DNA of 17,566 nt, from the IMG/VR virus record IMGVR_UViG_3300029071_000015. One strand, written 5' to 3'. Below the pieces are notes generated by a model. That model ran no database searches and was not told the DNA's origin. It worked only from the letters and a program-made list of their open reading frames with translations. A program made the translations under genes and the position numbers. Position 1 is the stretch's first letter, and each line of letters opens with the position of its first letter. This DNA is from a virus (taxonomy: Duplodnaviria > Heunggongvirae > Uroviricota > Caudoviricetes). Below, one piece after another: positions 989 to 17,566 of this stretch.

Positions 989-1297
989 ATGCGCCACGAT
1001 GACACCACCGTCGCGCAGGAAGCGGCGCATATAAAATGGAAACAGCACGGCGGCCCTTGTGAAATCCCCAATGGTCTGGCGCTTTGCGCAATTCACCATA
1101 AAGCCTTTGATAAAGGATCGATTGGCCTGGATGAAAATATGCGGGTACTGGTCTCGGATGCGGTAAACGGCGGAGGGATCGTTGAGAAACTATTCTGGGA
1201 TTTTGACGGGAAAACTATTGCGTTGCCGCAGGTGCGTAAAAATTACCCTTTTGAGGGGTTTGTGGAGTGGCATCGGAAAGAGGTTTTTAGGGGGTGA
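989..1297 (+). pseudogene. C-terminal HNH-nuclease-domain fragment (truncated remnant)
   Basis: In-frame Met at 989 immediately after the nanS stop; the translation contains an H-N-H-like pattern (AAHIKWKQHGGPCEIPNGLALCAIHHKAFD). The upstream part of ORF 815..1297 overlaps nanS in another frame and is probably not coding, so no N-terminal domain is present. Confidence 0.3.
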
Positions 1298-1304
1298 GGT
1301 TTGC

Positions 1305-1350
1305 TGTAAATAGACCCGTTTTAGTTCCATGCATTTTTTGAGCTCCCGGC
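1305..1350. repeat. Left arm of a 46-bp inverted repeat (45/46 match to the reverse complement of 2521..2566)
   Basis: tgtaaatagacccgttttagttccatgcattttttgagctcccggc; the reverse complement of 2521..2566 is identical except one base (gagCtcc vs gagAtcc). Confidence 0.85.
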
Positions 1351-1386
1351 ACTGCTAAATCCGCGCTGGGGCAAGTTGGGTTTAGG

Positions 1387-1656
1387 TTGCGCCAGAAGAT
1401 GGCAACTCATCATGGTATGCAGTTCGTTCCATGGCTGAGAGTCACACTGGAGCAAGAGTTTGTACATAACAATCCGGCCAAAGTTAATGATGATAATTTC
1501 AATAACGATATTGCCGGAACAAGAGGAAGTTGCCAGGCTGGCATCAGCGCGGCTACCACGCCGCACACACATATTTACGCCAGCATAAATTATGAGAAAG
1601 GTGATGGGGTGGAATCGCCGTGGACTGGAAACATTGGCTTTAATTATAGTTTCTAA
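1387..1656 (+). CDS. Possible C-terminal fragment of an outer-membrane beta-barrel protein (questionable)
   Basis: 89-aa ORF ending in ...WTGNIGFNYSF with a terminal Phe and alternating aromatic/hydrophobic residues, reminiscent of an OMP C-terminal beta-strand signature; no convincing RBS identified. Confidence 0.2.
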   Translation: MRQKMATHHGMQFVPWLRVTLEQEFVHNNPAKVNDDNFNNDIAGTRGSCQAGISAATTPHTHIYASINYEKGDGVESPWTGNIGFNYSF

Positions 1657-1762
1657 TATGGCATTTCATGTTTATATCAATTCCTATATATCCATTGCTT
1701 TTACAATCAAATGAGAACACCATTCATTATCTTAACAATAGAGATGAAGTCAGGAGACAGCC

Positions 1763-2356
1763 ATGTCATTGCTAGAGTCATTTGGGAAAGTATTAATTAT
1801 ATTGCTTGAAGCATTTTTAGGGAAACGCAAAGGTCAGGAGGAAGCACATATTAATTTTTTAAATGAATATACGAAAGAAAACTGCAACCATCGCTTGGTA
1901 GAATATTGGTTTTGTCAGCTCACAGGATGGCGTTACGCAAAGTACCAGGATATTGTTTTTATAATGATCTCATCCGACCCATCAAAAATATTGTATATGG
2001 CTAAAGGCATTAATTACATTGCCCGTACAGTGGAATTTATTGATAGTGGAGAATGTAAACTATCCGATAGACATAAAGAAACGAAAAAGAATACATTCCT
2101 CTTTTTGTTCATATCATTCATGATCATTTTCTTCATATTAATTGCCTGGATGGTATCCTCTGTAATATCTCTGATAACACATCATCATGATGTCATATTA
2201 ATGGCTATAAATATTTCATCGATAATAGCTGGTGCGATTTTTATCATGTGCTTTGCATTCTTCATTCATGCAATAACAATGGAGTTTTTTGCCTTTGAAA
2301 AGGCAGAGCATTTTGTAAAATCTTACAATGCAGAAAGAGCATCATCAGGTCGTTAA
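1763..2356 (+). CDS. Hypothetical membrane protein (soluble N-terminal ~110 aa followed by 2-3 predicted TM helices)
   Basis: 197-aa ORF with a strong RBS (caggagacagccATG); AT-rich codon usage; hydrophobic stretches FLFLFISFMIIFFILIAWMVSSVISLI and ILMAINISSIIAGAIFIMCFAFFIHAI; lies inside the inverted-repeat-bounded segment. Confidence 0.6.
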   Translation: MSLLESFGKVLIILLEAFLGKRKGQEEAHINFLNEYTKENCNHRLVEYWFCQLTGWRYAKYQDIVFIMISSDPSKILYMAKGINYIARTVEFIDSGECKLSDRHKETKKNTFLFLFISFMIIFFILIAWMVSSVISLITHHHDVILMAINISSIIAGAIFIMCFAFFIHAITMEFFAFEKAEHFVKSYNAERASSGR

Positions 2357-2520
2357 TGTTTGCCTCTATATTAATGCTACTGCTATCGCCACCTATTAAT
2401 ATCTGCCAATCAATAGGCAAAAAGGTGATACCAGTGGCATCAAAATTTCAGCCAAACAATCTTTGTAAGACGAAGATCTCTGATTTAACACTGCACTGAT
2501 TTTGGGCCAGGGTCAATTTG

Positions 2521-2566
2521 GCCGGGATCTCAAAAAATGCATGGAACTAAAACGGGTCTATTTACA
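2521..2566. repeat. Right arm of the 46-bp inverted repeat
   Basis: gccgggatctcaaaaaatgcatggaactaaaacgggtctatttaca; its last base abuts the first codon of the sid remnant. Confidence 0.85.
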
Positions 2567-2698
2567 ACCGGACTGTCAGCGGCAACACTCCCGCACATGG
2601 ATTATGAGGTGGCAGACACACCGGCACAGCGCAAGGTGTGGCAGGACAAAATAGACCAGCAGGCAGCAGAGCTTAAGGCCAGAGGACTGCTGTCATGA
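2567..2698 (+). pseudogene. sid: 3' remnant (last ~43 codons) of a P4 sid-like capsid-size-determination gene
   Basis: Translation TGLSAATLPHMDYEVADTPAQRKVWQDKIDQQAAELKARGLLS* matches my recollection of the P4 Sid C-terminus; the stop overlaps the next start (tcATGAtg), as expected in a sid-delta-psu late operon. Confidence 0.6.
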
Positions 2699-2820: not shown

Positions 2821-3393
2821 GTGACTACAATGTCATTACAGCAGGCTTTTGAGGTCTGCCAGAATAATAAAGCGGCATAGCTTCAGCGCAAAAATGAACT
2901 AGCGGCAGCCGAACAGGAATATCTGCGGCTTCTGTCCGGGGAAGGCAGGAATGTCAACCGGCTGGACGAATTACGCAATATTATCGAAGTCAGAAAATGG
3001 CTGGTGAATCAGGCCGCCGGTCGTTATATTCGTTCGCATGAAGCCGTTCAGCACATCAGCATCTGCGACCGGCTGAATGATTTTATGCAGCAGCACGGCA
3101 CAGCACTGGCGGCCGCACTGGCACCGGAGCTGATGGGCTACAGTGAGCTGACGGCCGTTGCCCGAAACTGAGCCATACAGCGTGCCACAGATGCCCTGCG
3201 TGAAGCCCTCCTGTCCTGGCTTGCGAAGGGTGAAAAAATTAATTATTCCGCACAGGATAGCGACATTTTAACGGCTATCGGATTCAGGCCTGACGAGGCT
3301 TCGGTGGATGACAGCCGTGAAAAATTCACTCCTGCGCAGAACATAATTTTTTCCCGTAAAAGTGCAGAACTGGCATCACGTCAGTCTGTGTAA
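2821..3393 (+). pseudogene. psu: psu (polarity suppression protein) pseudogene with two in-frame stop codons
   Basis: A 573-nt frame (190 codons plus stop, GTG start with RBS aggagacgggGTG) alignable along its length to the intact Psu at 12705..13271 (roughly 60% identity by eye); TAG at 2878..2880 where the intact copy has Trp, and TGA near 3170 where a sense codon is expected. Confidence 0.75.
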
Positions 3394-3603: not shown

Positions 3604-4167
3604 TTAAGCATCCGCTTCAAATCCTCCAAGATCGATTTGCTCTTCGATTTCAGGAGTCCAAAGTAATTCTTCTGGCGTAGCGTTTGACCAAAGCAATTTA
3701 CCATTCTCGATAACATACTTAACCGGTATTTTAGGATTGTTTATGTCTTTACCATCTCTTTCATGCCATTGTCTCTCCCATTTATCATAGAAGACTTCCA
3801 AATCACCGGGCATGAGTAAATAAACTGAACGGATAGTGATATTACTATAAATTGCGAACACCCATGGAACCTGCCTATATTTCGCAATTATTGTTGGATT
3901 CATATGATGGTGAGTTGAAAAACTTTTAGTTAACTCAACATTAACTGATTTTAATTCAAACTCAGTACCAGTGACATCTACTGCATCATTACCTTCTCGC
4001 CCAGGAAGAACTTTAAGACTGAGAAGTAAAAGAACTTGCAGGAGTTTCCCTCCGTTATCTTGGAATATATCATTGATTCCGTGCTTATTAGCTAACCGTT
4101 GATATTCTTCAACCTGAGGCCAAAGCGCAATTAAATTTGACCAATCTTGATGCAACTCAAATTTCAT
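3604..4167 (-). CDS. Type II restriction endonuclease, PvuII-like (PD-(D/E)xK)
   Basis: 187-aa ORF; segments [51 protein letters not shown] and DKWER match my recollection of R.PvuII, including the catalytic D...E-x-K; ATGA overlap with the upstream C gene; divergent from the methyltransferase. Confidence 0.75.
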
Positions 4168-4455: not shown

Positions 4456-5430
4456 ATGACATTTGACAATAAAAAACCTGCGTACAAAACAGATTTGGGT
4501 GCAATGTACATTGCTGACTCGCTTGAAATGCTTAAATCGATGCCAGACAACAGCTTAAATTTAGTGATGACAAGCCCACCTTTCGCATTACAGCGTAAGA
4601 AAGAATATGGTAATCACGATCAAGAACAGTACATCGATTGGTTTTTAAAATTCGGCGAGCTGATTTTTAAAAAGCTAAAAGATGATGGTAGCTTTGTCGT
4701 CGATTTTGGTGGTGCTTACATGAAAGGAGTGCCTGTTAGAAGTGTCTACAACTTCCGGGTTTTGATCAGGATGATTGATGAGGTTGGGTTCCATCTGGCT
4801 GAGGACTTCTATTGGTTTAACCCTTCAAAACTACCAAGTCCTATTGAGTGGGTTAACAAAAGAAAGCTGCGTGTTAAAGATTCTGTTAACACAATTTGGT
4901 GGTTTAGCAAAACCGAATGGCCAAAGTCAGATATAACTAAAGTTCTTGTTCCCTATAGTGATAGGATGAAAAAACTTATTGAAGACCCTAATAAATATTA
5001 TTCCCCCAAAATGCGTCCATCAGGGCATGATATAAGCAGCAGCTTTGGCAAAGATAATGGCGGTGCTATACCTCCAAATTTATTGCAAATTCCCAACTCC
5101 GAATCTAACGGTGGATATTTATCGAGTTGTAAAAAAATTGGCGTTAAGGGGCATCCAGCACGATTCCCATCTAAATTGCCGGAGTTTTTCATTACAATGT
5201 TAACAGAGCCGGGTGATCTTGTTGTAGATATTTTTGGCGGTTCAAATACAACTGGAAGTGTTGCTGAACGATTAAAACGCAAATGGCTTTCATTTGAAAT
5301 ATTACCTGAATATGTAGCCGCATCTGTATTTAGATTTACAGATAAAAATACAAGTCAAGATATACTTCAAGAGATGTATGACACTATATTAAATGGAAAT
5401 ACTCTCGATTTATGCGCCAAAGAGAAATAA
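4456..5430 (+). CDS. DNA methyltransferase, beta-class amino-MTase (likely N4-cytosine, M.PvuII-like)
   Basis: 324-aa ORF; motif IV TSPPF near the N-terminus and motif I FGGSNTTG near the C-terminus (the circularly permuted order typical of beta-class N4C/N6A MTases); divergently arranged to the C-R genes. Confidence 0.8.
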   Translation: MTFDNKKPAYKTDLGAMYIADSLEMLKSMPDNSLNLVMTSPPFALQRKKEYGNHDQEQYIDWFLKFGELIFKKLKDDGSFVVDFGGAYMKGVPVRSVYNFRVLIRMIDEVGFHLAEDFYWFNPSKLPSPIEWVNKRKLRVKDSVNTIWWFSKTEWPKSDITKVLVPYSDRMKKLIEDPNKYYSPKMRPSGHDISSSFGKDNGGAIPPNLLQIPNSESNGGYLSSCKKIGVKGHPARFPSKLPEFFITMLTEPGDLVVDIFGGSNTTGSVAERLKRKWLSFEILPEYVAASVFRFTDKNTSQDILQEMYDTILNGNTLDLCAKEK

Positions 5431-5505: not shown

Positions 5506-6764
5506 TTAAGCATGAAGTTTTGCGTAGTCAAATGGACTAATAGGTTTAATCTTGTTTGCATCAAGATAATCAGCCCACCATTGAACCATTAATCGCCTTT
5601 CATCCAAATGTTCAGGGGTATGAATATAAGCTGCCCTAACACTATTACGCTCAGAATGACTCAACTGACGTTCTATCGCGTCATCACTCCATAGCCCCGA
5701 CTCCCCCAACGCACCACGTGCCATATTCCTAAAACCATGACCACAGACTTCCGTTTTTGTGTTATATCCCATCGCACGCAATGCATTGTTTACCGTATTT
5801 TCACTCATAACCTTAGCTGCGTCATGATCTCCCGGGAAAAGAAGCTCTTTATCACCACTAATCTGCTCAAGCTGTACTAACAACATCATCGCCTGCTGGC
5901 TAAGTGGAACTATATGCTCCTCTTTCATTTTCATGCCGCGATACGAGTAACGCACACCTTTAATTTCTTCACGTTTTGCCGGAATACGCCAAATAGCGTT
6001 ATCAAAATCAAATTCTTTCCAACGAGCAAAACGCAATTCGCTTGAACGAACAAAAGTTAGTAAAGAAAGCTCAACCGCAATTTTCGTCATCATACGACCA
6101 CGATATGCAGCAAGACGCGCCAAGAACTCAGGGAAACGATGTGAGGGTAGCGCCGGATAGTGCCGCATTTTAGATGTCGATAACGCTCCAGCCATATCAC
6201 TTGCAGGATTCGAGTCTATATAATCGTTCTGTACGGCATAGCGCATAATAGTAGTGACACGTTGCTGAAGACGCTGCGCTACATCATGCTTACCACTGGC
6301 ATCAACTTTTTTATCGGAGCTAGAAGATGACTAGTTTTAAGCTGTCGGATATCAGACGAGCCAATATAAGGGAAGATATAAAGCTCTAGATAGCGAAGAA
6401 CGCGCCCCCGATGATCCTCGCTCCAACGTTTGTTGCTGGCATGCCATTCACGGGTAATAGTTTCAAAATTATAAGTACCAGCATTCTCTGCTTGGGCCTC
6501 TTTTCGTACTGCTTTTGGATCTATGCCGTGTGCCAGCAACTTTTTCGCTTCATCCCTTCTCGTTCTAGCTTCAGCAAGCGTCACGGTCGGCCAAACACCA
6601 AAAGCAAGACGATCCTCTTTTTTGTCGGAGGGGCGTCTGTATTTCATACGCCAATATTTAGAGCCTTTGATAGAAACCTCAAGATACAAACCGCCACCAT
6701 CAGCCATTTTGTAGGTTTTGTCTTTTAGCTTTGCGGTCTCGACTTGTCTGGCGTTGAGCTTCAT
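5506..6764 (-). pseudogene. int: P4-family tyrosine integrase, frameshifted (split into 6279..6764 and 5506..6246 ORFs)
   Basis: The two ORFs together align along the intact integrase at 16301..17566 (roughly 85-90% identity); the nucleotide alignment shows a 1-bp deletion near 6270..6290 (ttttttatcgg versus ttttttaatcgg in the intact copy) that breaks the frame. Confidence 0.8.
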
Positions 6765-7461: not shown

Positions 7462-9795
7462 TTATGCCTCTGCGGGGTCGTCGCACTTCGGCAGCCAGTC
7501 GCCGTAGCTTTCCTCTTTCAGCGACAGGTTAGTCTGTATCCCCTGCTTTGTGTGCCGCTTCTCATAATTCAGGCCGTACTCTTTCAGCATCATGGGCAGC
7601 CCCAGCCCGAACATTTTCAGGCTGAGTACGTTCCTGTACCCGTTAGCCTCCATATAGGCCAGATACGCGTGATAGAGATATTTACGGTAATTACGCGGGA
7701 TGATGCTGGCATTCCCCATAAACATCCCGTTGGTCTGCGGGAGCATTTCCAGATAGCCGCAAAAATCAAACGTCGGGTCAGCATCGCGCTTGATGCTGAG
7801 CGCCTCGTCGGAGTTCTGCTGCGACTGGAGCAGTGCGCGCGCTGCCATCGGGTCGCTGAATTTCTGCATAAGCTGGCGCACAATCACGGCCAGCTCACGC
7901 GCAATTTTATCCCTGAGCTGCGGGTCGCGTTCCTCCGGCGCAATCTGCTCCGGGAAGTGGATAATCACCCGGCGGCGCGACACACCGCCGCTGCGGTCGG
8001 TGAAGCGCATGGGGTTATTGTTCACGGCCAGAATCACCGCCGGAATATGTGTTGAGTATGGGTTCTGGTATTTCGGGTCAACTGAGACCGCATCGCCGCC
8101 GGTGATGGCCTTAAGTCCTGCGCCGTCACCGCTCCATTTTTCCTGGTCTGGCAGACGGATTAGCGAGAAGCCAATCAGGGAGGCACGCTTGCGCGGGTCT
8201 TCCAGTGTGTCGATATCGGCCGACGTGGCGTTATCTTCCCCGGCGAGCAGGGTCGCGATTTCGGCCAGAATACTTTTGCCGCTCCCGCCGGGGCCGGTGA
8301 CTTCGAGAAAGAGCTGCCAGTCGTAGCGGTTCGCCAGTACCATAAACAGCGCGGCCAGAATCACGTCGCGTTTTTGTGGATTTTTGCCGGCCGCACGGTC
8401 GAGCCAGCGCCAGAAGTTCGGCGAGTGAGTCTCCAGCGTTTCCCCGTCCACCGGTGGGGTGAAATCCACGTCGCACAGCGTGCGCAGCCAGTGTGATTTA
8501 CTGTGCGGGCTGAACAGGCCGCTCTGGGTATCGAGTACCCCGTTGCGAAAGCCAATCAGACGACGCGCCGGTGTATCCTGCTGCGGAATAATCAGTTTCA
8601 GGGTCTCCACCACCGAGGCAATTTTCCCCGATGAGAACGGGGCGCGCAGACGCTGGAATAAGTCAGCCACATTCCGTGAAAAAGTGGCGGCAGGGATATT
8701 TTTCCAGATGCCGTTTTCATAGCGGGACAGGAGCTGGCCGTTTGCATCCACCGCCAGCGCTTCGCCGTAATGCTCATGCACCCGCAAGGCCTTGTCGCTG
8801 GCGCTCATGGCGGTAAATTCCGCCTCGCTCATGGTATCAAACGGGCTTTGCGCCGGTGGCCGGATAGCGTCATAAATGGCTTTGCGTGTCGCATCCTCAC
8901 CATTCTGCATAAACGCATCATTCCAGTCACCGAACACCGGCGGCAGGGCGACAATGCCCTCACAGGCTTCTGCGGCCGCGGCGGCTTTACTCTGGCCGTC
9001 GCCGTTAAGGTCACGGTCGGCGGCGAGCACAATCTGACAGGCCGGGTGTTTTTGTCGGGCAAGGCTCGCCAGAGAAAGGAGGTTCACGGAGGACAGCGCC
9101 ACCATGACGGTTTCGCCGGTCAGGTGATGCACGGTGAGCGCGGTCGCATAACCCTCCGCTATCCACAGGCGCTTTCCCGCCTGTTTTTTCCCTTCGATGA
9201 TGTGGCACGCTCCTTTTACCGCCCCGCCTTTCAGGGTGCGTTTGAGACCGTCAGAATTAATAAGCTGAACGTTAACCAGCGCCCCGGCATCGTCATACAG
9301 TGGGACAACCATATCACCGGCGCGGAACGTCACACCGCCGGTTTTGTGTGTGGCCGTCAGCATGACACACTCATGACCGGGGAATCCCTTGCGGGTGAGG
9401 TAGGCATTGCCGCTGGCCGGTCGGGTTTTCTCCATGAGCCTGACGGCCAGCGCGGCCGCCGCCTGGCGGTCAACCTCCGTTTCTGCTTCTGCGGCCGCAA
9501 TCACTTCCGGGGCAACCGGCGGCAGGTTGCCGGTCACGGCGTTCACCTTTTGAGCTGCCTCTGACGGATTTACACCGAACACCTTTTCAACCAGCTTAAG
9601 CCCGTCACCTGCGCCACACTGATTGCAAAACCACGTCCCGCGCCCTTCTTTATCATCAAAGCGGAAACGGTCAGAGCCGCCACACACCGGGCAGGACTGA
9701 TGGCGGTTTTTAATCACCTTCACACCCAGCGCAGGGAGAATGTGCGGCCAGTGGCCGCAGGCCTGTTTTACCGTTTCTGTTACGTTCATTTTCAT
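7462..9795 (-). CDS. P4 alpha-like primase-helicase (zinc-binding primase, P-loop NTPase)
   Basis: Long ORF; start chosen at MKMNVTETV with RBS gagggagaaaacaaccATG; N-terminal zinc-finger CPVCGGSDRF...FCNQCG; Walker A GPGGSGKS; size comparable to P4 alpha. Confidence 0.9.
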   Translation of the reverse strand: MKMNVTETVKQACGHWPHILPALGVKVIKNRHQSCPVCGGSDRFRFDDKEGRGTWFCNQCGAGDGLKLVEKVFGVNPSEAAQKVNAVTGNLPPVAPEVIAAAEAETEVDRQAAAALAVRLMEKTRPASGNAYLTRKGFPGHECVMLTATHKTGGVTFRAGDMVVPLYDDAGALVNVQLINSDGLKRTLKGGAVKGACHIIEGKKQAGKRLWIAEGYATALTVHHLTGETVMVALSSVNLLSLASLARQKHPACQIVLAADRDLNGDGQSKAAAAAEACEGIVALPPVFGDWNDAFMQNGEDATRKAIYDAIRPPAQSPFDTMSEAEFTAMSASDKALRVHEHYGEALAVDANGQLLSRYENGIWKNIPAATFSRNVADLFQRLRAPFSSGKIASVVETLKLIIPQQDTPARRLIGFRNGVLDTQSGLFSPHSKSHWLRTLCDVDFTPPVDGETLETHSPNFWRWLDRAAGKNPQKRDVILAALFMVLANRYDWQLFLEVTGPGGSGKSILAEIATLLAGEDNATSADIDTLEDPRKRASLIGFSLIRLPDQEKWSGDGAGLKAITGGDAVSVDPKYQNPYSTHIPAVILAVNNNPMRFTDRSGGVSRRRVIIHFPEQIAPEERDPQLRDKIARELAVIVRQLMQKFSDPMAARALLQSQQNSDEALSIKRDADPTFDFCGYLEMLPQTNGMFMGNASIIPRNYRKYLYHAYLAYMEANGYRNVLSLKMFGLGLPMMLKEYGLNYEKRHTKQGIQTNLSLKEESYGDWLPKCDDPAEA

Positions 9796-12704: not shown

Positions 12705-13271
12705 GTGACCACTGTGACATTGCAGCAGGCCTTTGAGGCCTGTCAGACGAACAAAAACACCTGGCTGAAACGTAAAGCCGAACTGGCCGACCTTGAACTT
12801 GAATACCGTGAACAGCTCCTTGCCGGTGACGAACAAATCCCGCGCAAAATGCAGGATTTGCGCGACAATATCGACGTGAAAAAATGGGAGATTAATCAGA
12901 CTGCCGGTCGCTATATCCGCTCACATGAGGAGGTGCAGCACATCAGCATTCGCAACCGGCTCAATGACTTTATGCAGCAGCACGGCGCGGAGCTGGCCGC
13001 CACGCTGGCACCTGAGCTGATGGGATATCACGAACAGCTTCCCGCAGTAAAACAGAGCGCCATGCAGCACTCGGTTGATTATCTGCGTGAAGCCCTGTCG
13101 GTGTGGCTGGCCGCCGGTGAAAAAATTAATTATTCCGTGCAGGACAGCGATATTTTAACGGCCATCGGATTCAGGCCTGATGCGGCTTCGCGGGATGATA
13201 GTCGCGAAAAATTCACCCCGGCACAGAACCTGATTTACACCCGCCGACGTGCAGAACTGGCCACACGGTAG
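12705..13271 (+). CDS. psu: Psu-like polarity suppression protein
   Basis: 188-aa ORF (GTG start with RBS caggagagagacacGTG) with conserved blocks AGRYIRSHE.VQHISI, RLNDFMQQHG, LAPELMGY, GEKINYS.QDSDILTAIGFRPD and DSREKFTPAQN matching my recollection of P4 Psu and the pseudogene copy at 2821..3393. Confidence 0.85.
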   Translation: MTTVTLQQAFEACQTNKNTWLKRKAELADLELEYREQLLAGDEQIPRKMQDLRDNIDVKKWEINQTAGRYIRSHEEVQHISIRNRLNDFMQQHGAELAATLAPELMGYHEQLPAVKQSAMQHSVDYLREALSVWLAAGEKINYSVQDSDILTAIGFRPDAASRDDSREKFTPAQNLIYTRRRAELATR

Positions 13272-13668: not shown

Positions 13669-14748
13669 ATGAATGTAGGGCATCTCAATTTTTTCAAGGT
13701 TAATAAGTGCGGTTTATACAAGGTAAATGATGACAATACCTATGGTTTAGAACTAAGCGAAACATTTGACCTCATACAGGATTGGGTAGGAACTAAACCT
13801 CTTGCACTCACCATACCATGGGACCCAAAAGAAAAACCCAATAGATCAAAGTGTTATTGTAAAGACATCTACAAAGATGAAAATACTGGTGATTTTTTAA
13901 TCATGTTATGGAAATCTGATACTGATAGTACTGGTTCTTTATTAGGAGCGAGTGAAGACGGTGAAATCGGAAGTTCATCAGTGGTTAAATATACTAATAG
14001 CTACAGAGGGAAAAAAGTCATCTGGGGTCGCCCATGCTTTTATTGGGTTATACCTGAACTTGAAACTATAGTTTCTATTAAATTCGATCATTCTGTTTGT
14101 GACTCTGAACTATTTCAAGATTATGTACACTCATCTATTACTAATAGAGTTAAACATAGCAAAAGAGTTAAAAATAAAACCGAGAAAGGTTATATAAGAT
14201 TATCTAATACTGATGACGAAGATTTATATAAATACATGTACAGATTTGATATGAAGCTCCGAAGCTTAGAAACCACTCATGCTGAGTTAGGTAAATTGAT
14301 ATCAAAAATAACACATATTGTTCGCAGAGAAACCATTATTATAAATCCAAATGACGCACGAGCTGATTGGTTAAAGACTTTTAGCACTCTCGTTCCATTT
14401 GTGTCCGGAAAGAAAAACACCAGAACAAGACAGATTGAAATAAAAGCAGAAGCGAAGCCATCCTTGAAAGAAGTTCAAGAAATAATTGAAAAACATTCTG
14501 CTGAGGATAGAGAAAAACGTCTTTGGGATAATGTGGGATTTGCGACGGACAAGGGCATAACATGGGTGGATAAATATAGAATGCGTGATATTCTCAATGT
14601 CCCTTCCGAAGACTATTCGACATATACCGCTGCATATATCTACGAACACATATCACACAAAAGAAAAGAATTCATTTCCCCTATATTAAAAGAGCTAAAA
14701 GCATTAAAATCTCAATCAAGAATAAAGAAAGCATCTGGAGAGGATTGA
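13669..14748 (+). CDS. Hypothetical protein (cargo gene A, 359 aa, soluble, Lys-rich)
   Basis: Long ORF with RBS aaggaaagagcATG; AT-rich codon usage contrasting with the satellite backbone; no catalytic motif I can recognise; stop directly abuts the next start (TGAATG). Confidence 0.7.
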   Translation: MNVGHLNFFKVNKCGLYKVNDDNTYGLELSETFDLIQDWVGTKPLALTIPWDPKEKPNRSKCYCKDIYKDENTGDFLIMLWKSDTDSTGSLLGASEDGEIGSSSVVKYTNSYRGKKVIWGRPCFYWVIPELETIVSIKFDHSVCDSELFQDYVHSSITNRVKHSKRVKNKTEKGYIRLSNTDDEDLYKYMYRFDMKLRSLETTHAELGKLISKITHIVRRETIIINPNDARADWLKTFSTLVPFVSGKKNTRTRQIEIKAEAKPSLKEVQEIIEKHSAEDREKRLWDNVGFATDKGITWVDKYRMRDILNVPSEDYSTYTAAYIYEHISHKRKEFISPILKELKALKSQSRIKKASGED

Positions 14749-15285
14749 ATGTTAAAAGCTATAGTAGGCCTCGTCAAATACACATGGATATACATAGCAA
14801 TATTCATTATATCGCTATTGGTCATTTTACCATCCGATATTTACTATGTGTATAACGATTTTGCTAACTATTGCACTCTTCTCGTATCAGTTTCTGGAAT
14901 GGTTTTTACTATTATGGGGATTTGGTTAGCGTTTCTTTATCCAAATGCTTTGCAGCGTATTGTTAACCCCAAAACTATAGAAACTGTTGATTTCACCGAA
15001 CAACTGGAAGATACAAAAAGGTTAGAAGCAATAGTTGGAAGTGTTCTAAAATCATCTTTCGTTATGATTACTTTACTTGTTGTATATTTAGTTAAACTAG
15101 TATTTTTCAAGAGTCATCTTTATTTAGAGAGTCAAGAAGTAATAAAAGACATATCTTTAGCATTAATTATTGCCATTTCATACATGCAGATTGAGGCAGT
15201 GATTAGTGTAATACTAGCTAATGTTATGTTTATCAATGATTTACATAATAAGCGAGAGCAAAGAGACATCGACGATCAAGTATGA
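14749..15285 (+). CDS. Hypothetical integral membrane protein (cargo gene B, 178 aa, ~4 TM helices)
   Basis: Four hydrophobic segments (WIYIAIFIISLLVIL, LLVSVSGMVFTIMGIWLAFLY, FVMITLLVVYLVKLVFF, LALIIAISYMQIEAVISVILANVMFI); translationally coupled to gene A. Confidence 0.7.
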   Translation: MLKAIVGLVKYTWIYIAIFIISLLVILPSDIYYVYNDFANYCTLLVSVSGMVFTIMGIWLAFLYPNALQRIVNPKTIETVDFTEQLEDTKRLEAIVGSVLKSSFVMITLLVVYLVKLVFFKSHLYLESQEVIKDISLALIIAISYMQIEAVISVILANVMFINDLHNKREQRDIDDQV

Positions 15286-15292
15286 GGAAAAA

Positions 15293-16246
15293 ATGAAAAA
15301 AAACATACGAGTTATACCTAAAAACATTCATAACAAGTTAAAAAGGCTTGGCAATGCAGTTGTTGCTGGCACTTCCATCGCATTTACAGAAGACCAATTA
15401 AAAAATGGTATACTAGAGCACCTTGGAATATACTTTGATAATGGTGTTAATGCTTATGAGACGTCGGTTATACCCGATCCATTGCAAGGCAAATATTCAT
15501 TCAAAAATGTTTTCGGTGAAGAAATCGTAAGAAAAGACCTTCCAAAAGAAACTCATTACACTGAAATTGAGTCACCTAACTGGGGTGATAGTTCTAACGG
15601 TACGCATACTGTTAGATTACCTCACGAGAAATACCCCAGAGATATTATCCCACCAAGACTCATAGCAATTGAAATTAATCACAAACAGTCTTCGGACAGT
15701 CATTTCATATTTAATTTCAGAGTAACTAGAATTTTAGAAAAAAAATCAACCAAGTTTCATGATGAATTATTATTCGACTTAAATCTTCTTCAAGAAAATA
15801 TTGGGAAGTGTGGGATTGAGAATGCTGATAAACCTATATCGACTTATGCTGACACACTCATAGTATCATGGGACATATTTCCACCAGGTAGTAAAGAGGA
15901 AGTTTTAGCAAGAATCTTTAGAGGGAAAAATATCACTACAGATAAGAAAAGTGTTGCTGAAAACAGATATGACTTCTTTATGAGCCTTGATCCTAAAAAA
16001 ATTGTCACAGGTAATAGTACGTTCAGTAATTATATTGGAGCTATGCTAGAGGACGACCTGGTTGTTTTTGAAAATATAGAATATGGTAATGCAATATATA
16101 TCCTCTATGATAACTGGGATGAAATCAGCAAGCTATCTCGAATCGATTTGTTATCAGGAAGAGCAGGCAATAATTTCGATAGAATAATTCATAGTGGTAA
16201 TTGGAAAGACGAGGTGCGAAAAAAAGTTACTAATGGAAGATTATGA
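15293..16246 (+). CDS. Hypothetical protein (cargo gene C, 317 aa, soluble)
   Basis: Start placed at MKKNIRV with RBS tatgaggaaaaaATG, 7 nt after the gene B stop; the longer listed ORF (from 15221) would overlap gene B; followed by a strong terminator. Confidence 0.65.
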   Translation: MKKNIRVIPKNIHNKLKRLGNAVVAGTSIAFTEDQLKNGILEHLGIYFDNGVNAYETSVIPDPLQGKYSFKNVFGEEIVRKDLPKETHYTEIESPNWGDSSNGTHTVRLPHEKYPRDIIPPRLIAIEINHKQSSDSHFIFNFRVTRILEKKSTKFHDELLFDLNLLQENIGKCGIENADKPISTYADTLIVSWDIFPPGSKEEVLARIFRGKNITTDKKSVAENRYDFFMSLDPKKIVTGNSTFSNYIGAMLEDDLVVFENIEYGNAIYILYDNWDEISKLSRIDLLSGRAGNNFDRIIHSGNWKDEVRKKVTNGRL

Positions 16247-16300: not shown

Positions 16301-17566
16301 CTATTGTTTTTTGTTTATTTTAGCAAAATCATAAGGTGTAACTGTTTTGCTTTCATTTGCTTTGAGGTAATCAGCCCACCATTGCACCATCAAGCGACGC
16401 TCATCCAAATGCTCAGAGGTATGAATATACGCAGCACGTACATTATTTCTTTCCGAATGGCTCAACTGCCGTTCAATCGCGTCATCACTCCATAATCCTG
16501 ACTCACCCATAGCACCACGTGCCATCGTTCTGAATCCATGCCCGCAAACTTCAGTTTTCGTGTCATAGCCCATCGCACGCAGGGCGCTATTTACCGTGTT
16601 TTCACTCATAACCTTAGTTGCGTCATGATCCCCAGGAAACAGCAGCTCTTTATCACCACTAATTTGCTTGAGCTGCTCTAATAAAACCATCGCCTGCCGA
16701 CTGAGAGGAACGATATGCTCCTCTTTCATCTTCATGCCACGGTATGAGTAACGCACGCCTTTAATTTCTTCTCGCTTTGCCGGTATGCGCCAAAGAGATT
16801 TATCGAAGTCGAATTCATCCCAACGCGCGAAACGTAACTCACTGGAACGCACAAAAGTTAGTAAGGAAAGCTCGACAGCGATCCGTGTCATTACACGGCC
16901 ACGATAAGCAGCAAGCCGAGCAAGAAACTCAGGGAACCGGCTTGAGGGTAAAGCGGGGTAATGTCGCGCTTTGGTTGTCGATAGCGCACCGGCCATATCA
17001 CTGGCTGGATTTGATTCGATGTAATCGTTCTGTACGGCATAACGCATGATCGCCGTGACGCGCTGTTGCAAGCGCTGAGCGACGTCATGCTTTCCACTGG
17101 CATCAACTTTTTTAATCGGGGCTAACAGGTGGCTGGTTTTGAGCTGGCGAATGTCGGACGAACCGATATGAGGAAAAATATAAAGCTCAAGATATCGAAG
17201 AACGCGCGATCGATGGTCTTCACTCCATCGCTTGTTACAGGCATGCCATTCACGAGCAATGTTTTCGAAAGTATATGCCCCTGAATTCTCGGCTTGAGCT
17301 TCTTTCTGTTCGGCTTTTGGGTCAATGCCCTGCACTAACAGCTTTTTAGCTTCATCGCGCTTTGCTCTTGCCTGAGCAAGAGTCACTGTAGGCCAAACAC
17401 CAAAAGCAAGGCGATCCTCTTTTTTGTCTGAGGGGCGTCTGTATTTCATGCGCCAGTATTTAGAACCCTTGGCCGACACTTCAAGATACAACCCCCCGCC
17501 ATCGGCCATTTTGTAGGTTTTGTCTTTCGGCTTTGCGGTCTCGACCTGTCTGGCGTTGAGCTTCAT
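16301..17566 (-). CDS. int: P4-family tyrosine integrase (site-specific recombinase), intact
   Basis: 421-aa ORF; catalytic HxxR (HGFRTMARG) and C-terminal Tyr region (VRAAYIHTSEH); start codon is the last three bases of the window, so the promoter, att site and presumed tRNA lie beyond the window. Confidence 0.9.
   Translation of the reverse strand: MKLNARQVETAKPKDKTYKMADGGGLYLEVSAKGSKYWRMKYRRPSDKKEDRLAFGVWPTVTLAQARAKRDEAKKLLVQGIDPKAEQKEAQAENSGAYTFENIAREWHACNKRWSEDHRSRVLRYLELYIFPHIGSSDIRQLKTSHLLAPIKKVDASGKHDVAQRLQQRVTAIMRYAVQNDYIESNPASDMAGALSTTKARHYPALPSSRFPEFLARLAAYRGRVMTRIAVELSLLTFVRSSELRFARWDEFDFDKSLWRIPAKREEIKGVRYSYRGMKMKEEHIVPLSRQAMVLLEQLKQISGDKELLFPGDHDATKVMSENTVNSALRAMGYDTKTEVCGHGFRTMARGAMGESGLWSDDAIERQLSHSERNNVRAAYIHTSEHLDERRLMVQWWADYLKANESKTVTPYDFAKINKKQ

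What the first reader, a model, noticed from the sequence alone, without database searches (positions are those of the whole stretch)
1387..1656. Possible outer-membrane beta-barrel C-terminal fragment inside the inverted-repeat-bounded segment
Seen in sequence: the ORF ends ...HTHIYASINYEKGDGVESPWTGNIGFNYSF with a terminal Phe and alternating hydrophobic pattern characteristic of OMP C-terminal strands, but the upstream part lacks a signal peptide or barrel-like periodicity. It may be a remnant of a porin or autotransporter gene.
Basis: inference. Interest (0 to 1): 0.25.

Follow-up and report, generated by a model that had tools for sequence, protein, structure and literature searches.

The report
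Truncated autotransporter gene remnant
The ORF is the leftover last ~100 codons of an adhesin-type autotransporter gene that normally sits on a conjugative element, cut off by insertion-sequence debris; it is an ordinary gene fossil, not a working outer-membrane protein.

Summary
It is wrong for the porin/KdgM/NanC option.

- **What the ORF is.** Window 1345-1656 (ORF as listed: 1387-1656) is the last 103 codons plus stop of a 770-aa AIDA/pertactin-type classical autotransporter gene. It is 87% identical to the tail of the full-length gene on an integrative conjugative element (ICE) in E. coli MS 16-3. Full-length copies also occur in Citrobacter youngae and Salmonella.
- **Profile support.** It matches the autotransporter barrel profile TIGR01414 at positions 333-432 of 432 (64 bits, cut-off 16). 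It also matches BrkA barrel residues 187-284 of 284.
- **Neighbour.** The same 197-aa membrane-protein gene follows it as in the ICEs.
- **Left break.** The gene is cut at a 7-nt microhomology (TCCCGGC) with the right-end inverted repeat of an IS3-family element.
- **Right break.** The ICE fragment ends at 2462. There it meets the last ~50 nt of a second IS3-family element, followed by another copy of the same right-end repeat. These two repeat copies are the 46-nt inverted repeat.
- **Mobility.** There is no target-site duplication, and every other occurrence found lies in this same nanS-leuX context.

No signal peptide, passenger or barrel N-terminal part remains, so the ORF is non-functional. 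The finding is ordinary and of low interest.

The parts
1305..1350 (-). Left inverted-repeat arm. It is a copy of the right-end terminal repeat (IRR) of an IS3-family element (labelled IS-E here), inverted so that its TG terminus faces outward. The last 7 nt (TCCCGGC, 1344-1350) are shared with the autotransporter gene and form the junction microhomology.
   Evidence: One search reports the 46-nt inverted repeat at 98%. One search shows 45/46 identity to the IRR of the full 1208-nt IS in L002 but only 30/46 to its IRL. Searches show the full IS with its annotated IS3-family transposase. One search shows the junction.
1345..1656 (+). Autotransporter gene remnant: the last 103 codons plus stop, corresponding to residues 668-770 of the 770-aa full-length homologue. 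This is roughly the last four to five strands of the 12-strand barrel. The signal peptide, passenger, linker and first part of the barrel are absent.
   Evidence: See (87.5% nt and 87% aa identity to the MS 16-3 gene tail). One search gives TIGR01414 positions 333-432/432. One search gives BrkA 187-284/284. The strand count is inferred from length and alternation and was not computed.
1387..1656 (+). Metagenome gene callers took the ATG at 1399, giving 85 aa.
1657..1762 (+). Intergenic spacer co-inherited from the ICE, 104/106 nt identical to MS 16-3.
1763..2356 (+). Intact 197-aa predicted membrane-protein gene of unknown function, 31-35% G+C. It is an ICE gene that sits next to a variable cargo slot in Enterobacteriaceae ICEs, upstream of AcaB-like/PFL_4669 and DUF3158 genes.
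   Evidence: No curated family matched.
2392..2462 (+). End of the ICE-derived fragment. It is a repeated ICE motif (CCTATTAAT...ATCAATAGG plus the near-palindrome TGATACCAGTGGCATCA). Homology to all ICE loci stops at 2462.
2464..2515 (+). The last ~50 nt (transposase 3' end plus right terminus ...GGGCCAGGGTCA) of a second IS3-family element (labelled IS-K here; common on Klebsiella and Salmonella plasmids). It is joined internally to the ICE fragment.
2516..2567 (+). Right inverted-repeat arm: the last 52 nt of IS-E (IRR, terminus ...CTATTTACA), 52/52 identical to the full copy in L002. A truncated P4-like satellite begins immediately after it.
   Evidence: In one search the P4-like matches start at 2567/2568.

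Best explanation
**What it is (shown).** The ORF is a dead 3' fragment of a classical (type Va) AIDA/pertactin-type autotransporter gene. The intact 770-aa gene, followed by the same 197-aa membrane-protein gene, is cargo on SPI-7/PFL_4669-type ICEs in E. coli MS 16-3, Citrobacter youngae and Salmonella. In this window only a 1.12-kb piece of such an ICE survives (1344-2462): the last 103 codons of the autotransporter gene, the spacer, the 197-aa gene and a short ICE repeat motif.

**How it is bounded (shown).** The piece is wedged between fragments of IS3-family insertion sequences in the hypervariable nanS-leuX island of a non-coli Escherichia. Both of its borders are internal-to-internal joints.
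- Left: a 7-nt microhomology, TCCCGGC, with an IS right-end repeat.
- Right: a joint to the last ~50 nt of a second IS.

**How it arose (inferred).** Because the joints are internal, they were made by illegitimate recombination or deletion, not by transposase cutting at an IS tip. The two IS-E right ends that create the 46-nt inverted repeat are debris of IS copies. The right-hand one came as a pre-existing 'IS-K plus IS-E-end' composite.

**Function (inferred).** The fragment has about 4-5 of 12 barrel strands, no signal peptide and no passenger. It cannot be exported or form a barrel, so it has no autotransporter function. It persists because little time has passed since truncation and because it hitch-hikes next to the intact 197-aa gene.
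For: **Homology**
- Homology to the full-length gene begins at window ~1344 and runs to the common stop. The downstream spacer and gene are collinear.
- The cargo is 92.7% identical over all 1119 nt to Salmonella loci, 91.9% to MS 16-3 and 87.9% to C. youngae.
- The full-length protein has AIDA, Pertactin and Autotransporter domains and resembles Vag8, BrkA and pertactin.
- The remnant matches only the last 100 positions of TIGR01414 and BrkA residues 187-284.

**ICE origin**
- In the full-length loci the neighbours are ParB, STY4528, PFL_4669, TIGR03759 and TraD genes. AcaB/DUF3158 neighbours appear.

**IS boundaries**
- The left arm is 45/46 identical to the IS-E IRR and the right arm 52/52.
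- Positions 2464-2515 match the IS-K 3' end, whose terminus is defined by three independent contexts.
- The IS-K/IS-E-end joint also exists on Klebsiella, E. coli and Salmonella plasmids.

**No sign of transposition as a unit**
- The flanks are TTGC and ACCG, whereas the full IS-E has the duplication ATAT.
- The flanks are unrelated genes: the 3' end of a PT-DNA restriction endonuclease gene and the interior of a P4-like satellite.

**Decay signal**
- The window lineage has the most private amino-acid changes in the tail: 10, against 1 and 7 in the other two lineages. This is weakly consistent with relaxed constraint.
Against: - The remnant frame is still open, with no frameshift or internal stop over 103 codons. 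Decay is therefore not demonstrated by disabling mutations inside the fragment, and the excess of private replacements is small.
- The neighbouring intact 197-aa gene shows a similar replacement rate in all lineages.
- Both IS-E arms retain almost exactly the terminal-repeat length (46 and 52 nt). That is tidier than two random deletions would be expected to leave, and it leaves room for a cassette-like origin.
- The order of events, and whether an ICE once sat here or only a fragment was imported, cannot be resolved from the data.
- Expression was not tested.
Confidence: 0.9

Rival explanations
1. The 1.26-kb inverted-repeat-bounded unit (1305-2566) is a non-autonomous transposable cassette, like a mobile insertion cassette or a large MITE. 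On this reading, two IS-E right-end repeats with their tips outward flank passenger DNA, and the unit was delivered here, or can still be moved, by IS-E transposase supplied in trans. The autotransporter tail would then be passenger DNA caught when the cassette formed.
For: - The arms are oriented tips-outward like a transposable element. They are 98% complementary and retain almost exactly the ~48-nt terminal repeat of IS-E.
- The unit contains no transposase.
- Its size (1262 nt) is close to that of IS-E itself (1208 nt).
- IS-E is clearly active in this region in E. coli: RM14723 has an independent insertion inside the neighbouring endonuclease gene.
- Cassettes bounded by IS repeats are a recognised class (MICs; PMC6542083).
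Against: - There is no 3-4-bp target duplication (TTGC versus ACCG), although the full IS-E shows ATAT.
- Both ends are right-end type.
- The right arm is not a clean IS-E end. It is part of an IS-K/IS-E composite found elsewhere.
- The cargo joints are internal microhomology joints.
- All other occurrences sit in the identical nanS/HNH/P4 context: 16 assembly contigs (six places displayed, the rest listed as similar places) and 2 metagenome contigs.
- None of 5,426 complete E. coli genomes carries the unit.
Confidence: 0.07
2. The ORF is a genuine small gene, for example a stand-alone mini beta-barrel or a peptide that interacts with BAM, rather than a pseudogene fragment.
For: - The frame is open for 89-103 codons.
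- It keeps the C-terminal aromatic beta-signal (…FNYSF).
- Gene callers called it in metagenome assemblies.
Against: - There is no signal peptide or hydrophobic N-terminus in MRQKMATHHGMQ….
- The N-terminal limit of the frame is set by a stop codon inside IS debris.
- It is collinear with the interior of a 770-aa gene.
- Only a third of a 12-strand barrel is present.
- Promoter-like sites in the region are no more frequent than in shuffled sequence.
Confidence: 0.02
3. The ORF is a remnant of a porin-type or KdgM/NanC-type outer-membrane channel. This is the reader's other suggestion, and nanC lies just upstream of the window in related contigs.
For: A KdgM-family gene (nanC) is in the neighbourhood, and the tail ends in Phe.
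Against: - No KdgM or porin family hit appears even at E<=1. Autotransporter is the only hit.
- The sequence is 87% identical to an autotransporter tail.
Confidence: 0.01

Closest known systems
770-aa ICE-borne autotransporter WP_000684968.1 of E. coli MS 16-3 (NZ_CP146667.1), with orthologues in Citrobacter youngae ATCC 29220 and Salmonella enterica
   Same: The C-terminal 103 residues are 87% identical, with the same stop codon. The same 106-nt spacer and the same downstream 197-aa gene follow.
   Different: The window lacks codons 1-667 (signal peptide, AIDA/pertactin passenger, linker, first part of the barrel) and all ICE backbone genes. It lies in the nanS-leuX island between IS fragments instead of on an ICE.
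Classical (type Va) autotransporters with pertactin-like passengers: Bordetella BrkA (3QQ2), Vag8 (7AKV) and pertactin; more distantly AIDA-I and Ag43
   Same: The barrel C-terminus aligns end to end with BrkA 187-284 and Vag8 786-877, including the terminal aromatic motif. The full-length relatives share the Pertactin and Autotransporter domains.
   Different: Similarity is only distant (E=2e-9 for the fragment). The full-length relative fails the named equivalog models by a wide margin: BafA 176 of 700 bits, AIDA-I 31 of 1200, Ag43 29 of 1200. It is therefore an unnamed subfamily, and here only a fragment of it.
Mobile insertion cassettes / MITE-like IS derivatives (e.g. MIC231 of Bacillus cereus; PMC6542083 and its reference 35)
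   Same: IS-type terminal inverted repeats with tips outward bound DNA that encodes no transposase.
   Different: There is no target-site duplication, both ends are right-end type, one arm is embedded in a second IS fragment, and only a single genomic context is known.
NanC/KdgM small outer-membrane channels
   Same: Both are outer-membrane beta-barrels ending in an aromatic residue, and nanC is a near neighbour of this locus.
   Different: There is no sequence similarity.

Membership tests
Type Va (classical) autotransporter, beta-domain PF03797 / TIGR01414 | Sequence match to the C-terminal translocator barrel profile | tested here: met
   TIGR01414 gives 64.1 bits (cut-off 16), E=1.2e-17, but only over profile positions 333-432/432. 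PF03797 matches 187-254/255, E=4.5e-5, at 23.8 bits, below the 26-bit gathering score for the 89-aa ORF.
Type Va (classical) autotransporter, beta-domain PF03797 / TIGR01414 | Complete 12-strand barrel (whole domain present) | tested here: not met
   Only the last ~100 of 432 (TIGR01414) or ~68 of 255 (PF03797) profile positions are present. This corresponds to BrkA 187-284 of 284. The full-length homologue has the domain at 510-748.
Type Va (classical) autotransporter, beta-domain PF03797 / TIGR01414 | C-terminal aromatic residue / beta-signal motif | tested here: met
   The sequence ends ...GNIGFNYSF*, identical to the full-length homologues.
Type Va (classical) autotransporter, beta-domain PF03797 / TIGR01414 | N-terminal Sec signal peptide and secreted passenger domain | tested here: not met
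   Homology starts at residue 668 of 770. Upstream is IS repeat DNA with an in-frame TGA. The passenger domains (AIDA, Pertactin) are seen only in full-length relatives. Absence of a signal peptide was judged by eye from the sequence; no predictor was run.
KdgM/NanC outer-membrane channel family (PF06178) | Profile match to PF06178 | tested here: not met
   There is no hit at E<=1.
Mobile insertion cassette / MITE-like non-autonomous IS derivative | Terminal inverted repeats matching those of an autonomous IS, and no transposase inside | tested here: met
   The arms are 45/46 and 52/52 identical to the IS-E right end. The interior holds only the autotransporter tail and the 197-aa gene.
Mobile insertion cassette / MITE-like non-autonomous IS derivative | Flanking target-site duplication of the length made by the parent IS | tested here: not met
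   The flanks are TTGC and ACCG, whereas the parent IS in L002 has ATAT/ATAT.
Mobile insertion cassette / MITE-like non-autonomous IS derivative | Copies at more than one genomic site | tested here: not met
   The 16 assembly contigs (six places displayed, the rest listed as similar) and the 2 metagenome contigs all show the same context. The unit is absent from 5,426 E. coli genomes.
Mobile insertion cassette / MITE-like non-autonomous IS derivative | Mobilisation by the cognate transposase in trans | not testable with these tools
   This needs a transposition or excision assay.

The most novel reading that the evidence does not exclude
The inverted-repeat-bounded 1.26-kb unit is a naturally formed non-autonomous cassette built from two right-end repeats of an IS3-family element. 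IS-E transposase supplied in trans could then move an ICE gene (the 197-aa membrane protein) and the autotransporter tail around the genome. The recurrent 'IS-K terminus + 52-nt IS-E end' composite seen on plasmids would hint that such borrowed ends are used repeatedly.
Probability: 0.07. Interest if true: 0.3.

Novelty: already known. Interest (0 to 1): 0.1.

Why it matters
It matters mainly for annotation. The 85-89-aa ORF should be flagged as a pseudogene fragment of an autotransporter gene, not called as a hypothetical protein or an OMP.

It also gives a small, well-resolved example of how the nanS-leuX defence/satellite island accumulates scraps of other mobile elements through IS-associated illegitimate recombination. 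Here the scrap is an ICE cargo module. It shows that this Escherichia lineage, or a donor, once carried an SPI-7/PFL_4669-type ICE with this adhesin-like autotransporter.

No open question is advanced.

Tried and rejected
- **KdgM/NanC or porin origin.** No profile hit. Rejected.
- **Named autotransporter families** (BafA, AIDA-I, Ag43, MisL). Only far-sub-threshold partial matches, so the gene is not assigned to any of them.
- **A function for the 197-aa neighbour.** Pfam, NCBIfam and PADLOC gave nothing significant. The homologue search found 8 cluster representatives (E<=0.001), the named ones from Salmonella, Morganella and Citrobacter, all annotated hypothetical. Its upstream neighbour varies: autotransporter, Fic or others. 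It is therefore not a dedicated autotransporter partner.
- **An IS-E insertion at the same site in E. coli.** None found. E. coli homology stops at window 1300-1301. The RM14723 insertion is at a different position.
- **The unit on plasmids or in other contexts.** Only the IS fragments matched on plasmids. The metagenome junction scan gave the same context only.
- **Relative-rate test for decay.** It is suggestive (10 private aa changes against 1 and 7) but not decisive, because the intact neighbour gene evolves similarly fast.
- **Promoter/terminator scan.** Uninformative; counts were at the shuffle level.
- **Not attempted.** Structure prediction was skipped because the sequence evidence was already conclusive. 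The two IS elements could not be given ISfinder names with the tools available; 'IS-E' and 'IS-K' are labels used only in this report.

Full report
**Observation.** The ORF at 1387-1656 (+ strand, TTG start, 89 aa) is present and ends ...HTHIYASINYEKGDGVESPWTGNIGFNYSF* as reported. The inverted repeat said to bound the segment is also real: arms 1305-1350 and 2521-2566, 46 nt, 98% complementary, 1170 nt apart.

**Identity of the ORF.**
- Pfam gives a single hit, Autotransporter beta-domain PF03797, to the extreme C-terminus of the profile (187-254 of 255). The E-value is 4.5e-5 and the score 23.8 bits, just below the 26-bit gathering score.
- I extended the frame upstream to 1345, since the frame is open back to a TGA at 1339-1341. 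The resulting 103 residues hit NCBIfam TIGR01414 (autotransporter outer-membrane beta-barrel domain) at positions 333-432 of 432. The score is 64.1 bits against a cut-off of 16, E=1.2e-17.
- They also align to residues 187-284 of the 284-residue BrkA translocator structure 3QQ2 (E=2.2e-9), and to the ends of Vag8 and the AIDA-I-type adhesin 4MEE.
- No KdgM/NanC or porin family appears even at E<=1.

**The full-length gene.**
- A megablast of 1300-2600 against 5,426 complete E. coli genomes found one genome, strain MS 16-3, that covers the interior (window 1344-2462, 91.9% identity).
- There the matching DNA is the 3' end of a 2313-nt gene annotated as an autotransporter outer-membrane beta-barrel domain-containing protein (WP_000684968.1, 770 aa), followed by a 197-aa hypothetical gene. 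The neighbours are ParB, STY4528-family, PFL_4669-family, TIGR03759-family and TraD genes, so this is an integrative conjugative element.
- The 770-aa protein has AIDA repeats (67-116), a Pertactin domain (353-464) and the Autotransporter beta-domain (510-748). Its nearest solved relatives are Bordetella Vag8, BrkA and pertactin.
- The pairwise DNA alignment shows no similarity left of window ~1344. From there it is collinear through the shared stop codon, the 106-nt spacer (104/106 identical), the whole 197-aa gene and ~106 nt beyond, ending at 2462.
- The window therefore keeps codons 668-770 of the gene. The tail differs from MS 16-3 at 39 of 312 nt and 13 of 103 aa.
- The same two-gene module (770 aa + 197 aa) is present in Citrobacter youngae ATCC 29220 and in Salmonella enterica contigs, which are 92.7% identical over all 1119 nt.

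**The neighbour gene.**
- The 197-aa product has C-terminal hydrophobic segments, low G+C (31-35%) and no significant family match in Pfam, NCBIfam or PADLOC.
- The homologue search returned 8 cluster representatives with E<=0.001. The named ones are from Salmonella, Morganella and Citrobacter, and all are annotated hypothetical.
- In these loci it always lies just upstream of AcaB-like/PFL_4669 and DUF3158 ICE genes. The gene on its other side varies: the autotransporter, a Fic protein in C. farmeri, or unrelated genes.
- It is thus an ICE gene beside a variable cargo slot, not a dedicated partner of the autotransporter.

**The boundaries.**
- The right arm (2516-2567) is 52/52 identical to the right end of a 1208-nt IS3-family element. 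A full copy of this element, with an annotated frameshifted transposase and an ATAT target duplication, sits between mltD and a methyltransferase gene in E. coli USDA-ARS-USMARC-49610. I call it IS-E.
- The left arm (1305-1350) is 45/46 identical to the same right end, inverted. It is only 30/46 identical to the IS-E left end. Both arms are therefore right-end repeats with their TG tips pointing outward.
- The left joint lies in a 7-nt microhomology. The IS end reads ...GAGATCCCGGCC, the intact autotransporter gene ...CACATCCCGGCAC, and the window ...GAGCTCCCGGCAC.
- On the right, ICE homology stops at 2462. Positions ~2464-2515 match the last ~50 nt of a different IS3-family element that is abundant on Klebsiella and Salmonella plasmids. 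I call it IS-K.
- Comparing three independent IS-K insertions fixes its right tip at ...GGGCCAGGGTCA, which is window 2515.
- The joint 'IS-K tip + last 52 nt of IS-E' is not unique to this window. It recurs with different outer flanks on a K. pneumoniae plasmid (99%), a Salmonella plasmid (95%) and E. coli plasmids (87-88%). In all, 52 plasmids cover at least 80% of the 104-nt composite.
- The right arm thus arrived as part of a pre-existing IS composite, which was later deleted down to its last ~100 nt.

**No sign of transposition as a unit.**
- The outer flanks are TTGC and ACCG, so there is no duplication.
- They belong to unrelated genes. On the left is the 3' end of a phosphorothioated-DNA restriction endonuclease gene; its homology with E. 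coli ends at 1300-1301. On the right is the interior of a P4-like satellite; matches begin at 2567/2568.
- An exact-protein look-up of the 197-aa product read 16 assembly contigs (six places displayed). The five displayed places that extend beyond the unit all show fimB-like/nanC/nanM/nanS/HNH on one side and the PvuII R-M/P4-like integrase on the other. Five of the six carry the 1263-nt unit base-for-base; the sixth is a 1245-nt contig that ends inside the repeat arms.
- An exact scan of the metagenome collection for the left junction returned two contigs, again with identical flanks.
- No complete E. coli genome carries the unit.

**Context.**
- The nanS/endonuclease stretch is ~92.7% identical to E. 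coli, so the host is a non-coli Escherichia.
- The window spans the variable island between nanS and leuX. After the IS-bounded scrap come two tandem P4-like satellites. The second is collinear with one integrated at tRNA-Leu in E. coli MB50.

**Interpretation.**
- Shown: the ORF is the 3' 103 codons of a type Va autotransporter gene of ICE origin, flanked by IS end fragments. The signal peptide, passenger and roughly two-thirds of the barrel are missing.
- Inferred: the fragment cannot be exported or fold into a barrel, so it has no autotransporter function.
- Inferred: both of its borders were made by microhomology-mediated illegitimate recombination or deletion involving IS copies, because they are internal-to-internal joints rather than IS-tip joints.
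- The window lineage shows the most private amino-acid changes in the tail: 10, against 1 in MS 16-3 and 7 in C. youngae, from 22, 12 and 17 private nucleotide changes. This fits relaxed constraint. It is not decisive, because the intact 197-aa gene changes nearly as fast in every lineage.
- Unresolved: whether an ICE once sat here and eroded, or a fragment was imported.

**Rivals.**
- The most interesting alternative is that the unit is a non-autonomous cassette (MIC/MITE-like; the class is described in PMC6542083) mobilisable by IS-E. The tips-outward, near-exact terminal repeats and the lack of a transposase fit. The missing target duplication, the composite right arm, the internal cargo joints and the single known context argue against it. 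I give it about 0.07.
- A functional mini-gene (0.02) and a KdgM/porin origin (0.01) are effectively excluded.

**Verdict.** This is an ordinary pseudogene fragment of a known protein family in an IS-scarred variable island. The novelty rating is 'already known' and the interest is low (0.1).

Noticed in passing
window 13669-16246 (psu 12705-13271; integrase 16301-17566): The second, apparently intact P4-like satellite carries three ORFs (359, 178 and 341 aa) in its psu-integrase hotspot. The first two match the PADLOC candidate defence system PDC-M18 A/B (E=1.5e-38 and 9.6e-16). The third has no hit, and none has a Pfam domain. The same trio sits in the leuX-integrated satellite of E. coli MB50.
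   Followed up: partly
window 2568-~7400: The first P4-like satellite is degenerate. It is cut by the IS end at 2567, its psu frame (~2821-3393) has two in-frame stops, and its integrase is split into 246-aa and 161-aa ORFs (5506-6246, 6279-6764). Its hotspot still holds a complete-looking PvuII-type R-M: REase 3604-4167 (-), an HTH C-protein, and MTase 4456-5430 (+).
   Followed up: partly
window ~940-1297 (ORF 815-1297): The phosphorothioated-DNA-binding restriction endonuclease gene next to nanS is also a remnant. Only profile positions 168-284 of 284 remain (NF045808, 168.7 bits against a cut-off of 180). E. coli genomes have ~765 nt more between nanS and this tail. The last ~120 nt of this piece (window 1180-1301, the only part scored on its own) are 98-99% identical to E. 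coli, while the whole 1-1304 stretch that includes nanS averages ~92.7%.
   Followed up: partly
window 2464-2567; L014:1601-1701; L016:1801-1900; L017:1801-1900: The right tip of one IS3-family element (IS-K...GGGCCAGGGTCA) is directly followed by the last 52 nt of another (IS-E) in at least four different genomic contexts, with 87-99% identity. In all, 52 plasmids cover at least 80% of the 104-nt composite. In the two plasmid copies where the IS-K left boundary could be aligned (L014, L017), the DNA to its left is not IS-E interior, so a simple nested insertion does not explain it. Possibly an alternative or borrowed right end, or targeted insertion followed by loss.
   Followed up: partly
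window 2392-2462; L001:5796-5893 and 9056-9113; L019:3142-3192 and ~5680-5730: A ~60-nt motif containing the palindrome TGATGCCAGTGGCATCA and a CCTATCAAT...ATCGATAGG hairpin is repeated on the ICEs. It occurs on both sides of the 'variable gene + 197-aa gene' module: twice upstream of the autotransporter gene and once downstream of the 197-aa gene. It could be an operator or a recombination site marking the cargo slot.
   Followed up: partly
L022:2583-4894 (Salmonella enterica contig; the L021 sequence matches it in the region compared): In the Salmonella copies the autotransporter reading frame is itself interrupted near its 3' end. L022 has gene calls of 685 aa plus 79 aa where the intact gene gives 770 aa, and L021 has no gene call in that interval. 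The longest open frame is 732 codons. The gene seems to be decaying on its native ICE too.
   Followed up: no
L003:2727-3648 (E. coli RM14723) versus window ~1079: IS-E has inserted independently inside the same endonuclease gene in several E. coli strains, at a position equivalent to window ~1079. This suggests the nanS-adjacent region is a recurrent target for this IS.
   Followed up: partly
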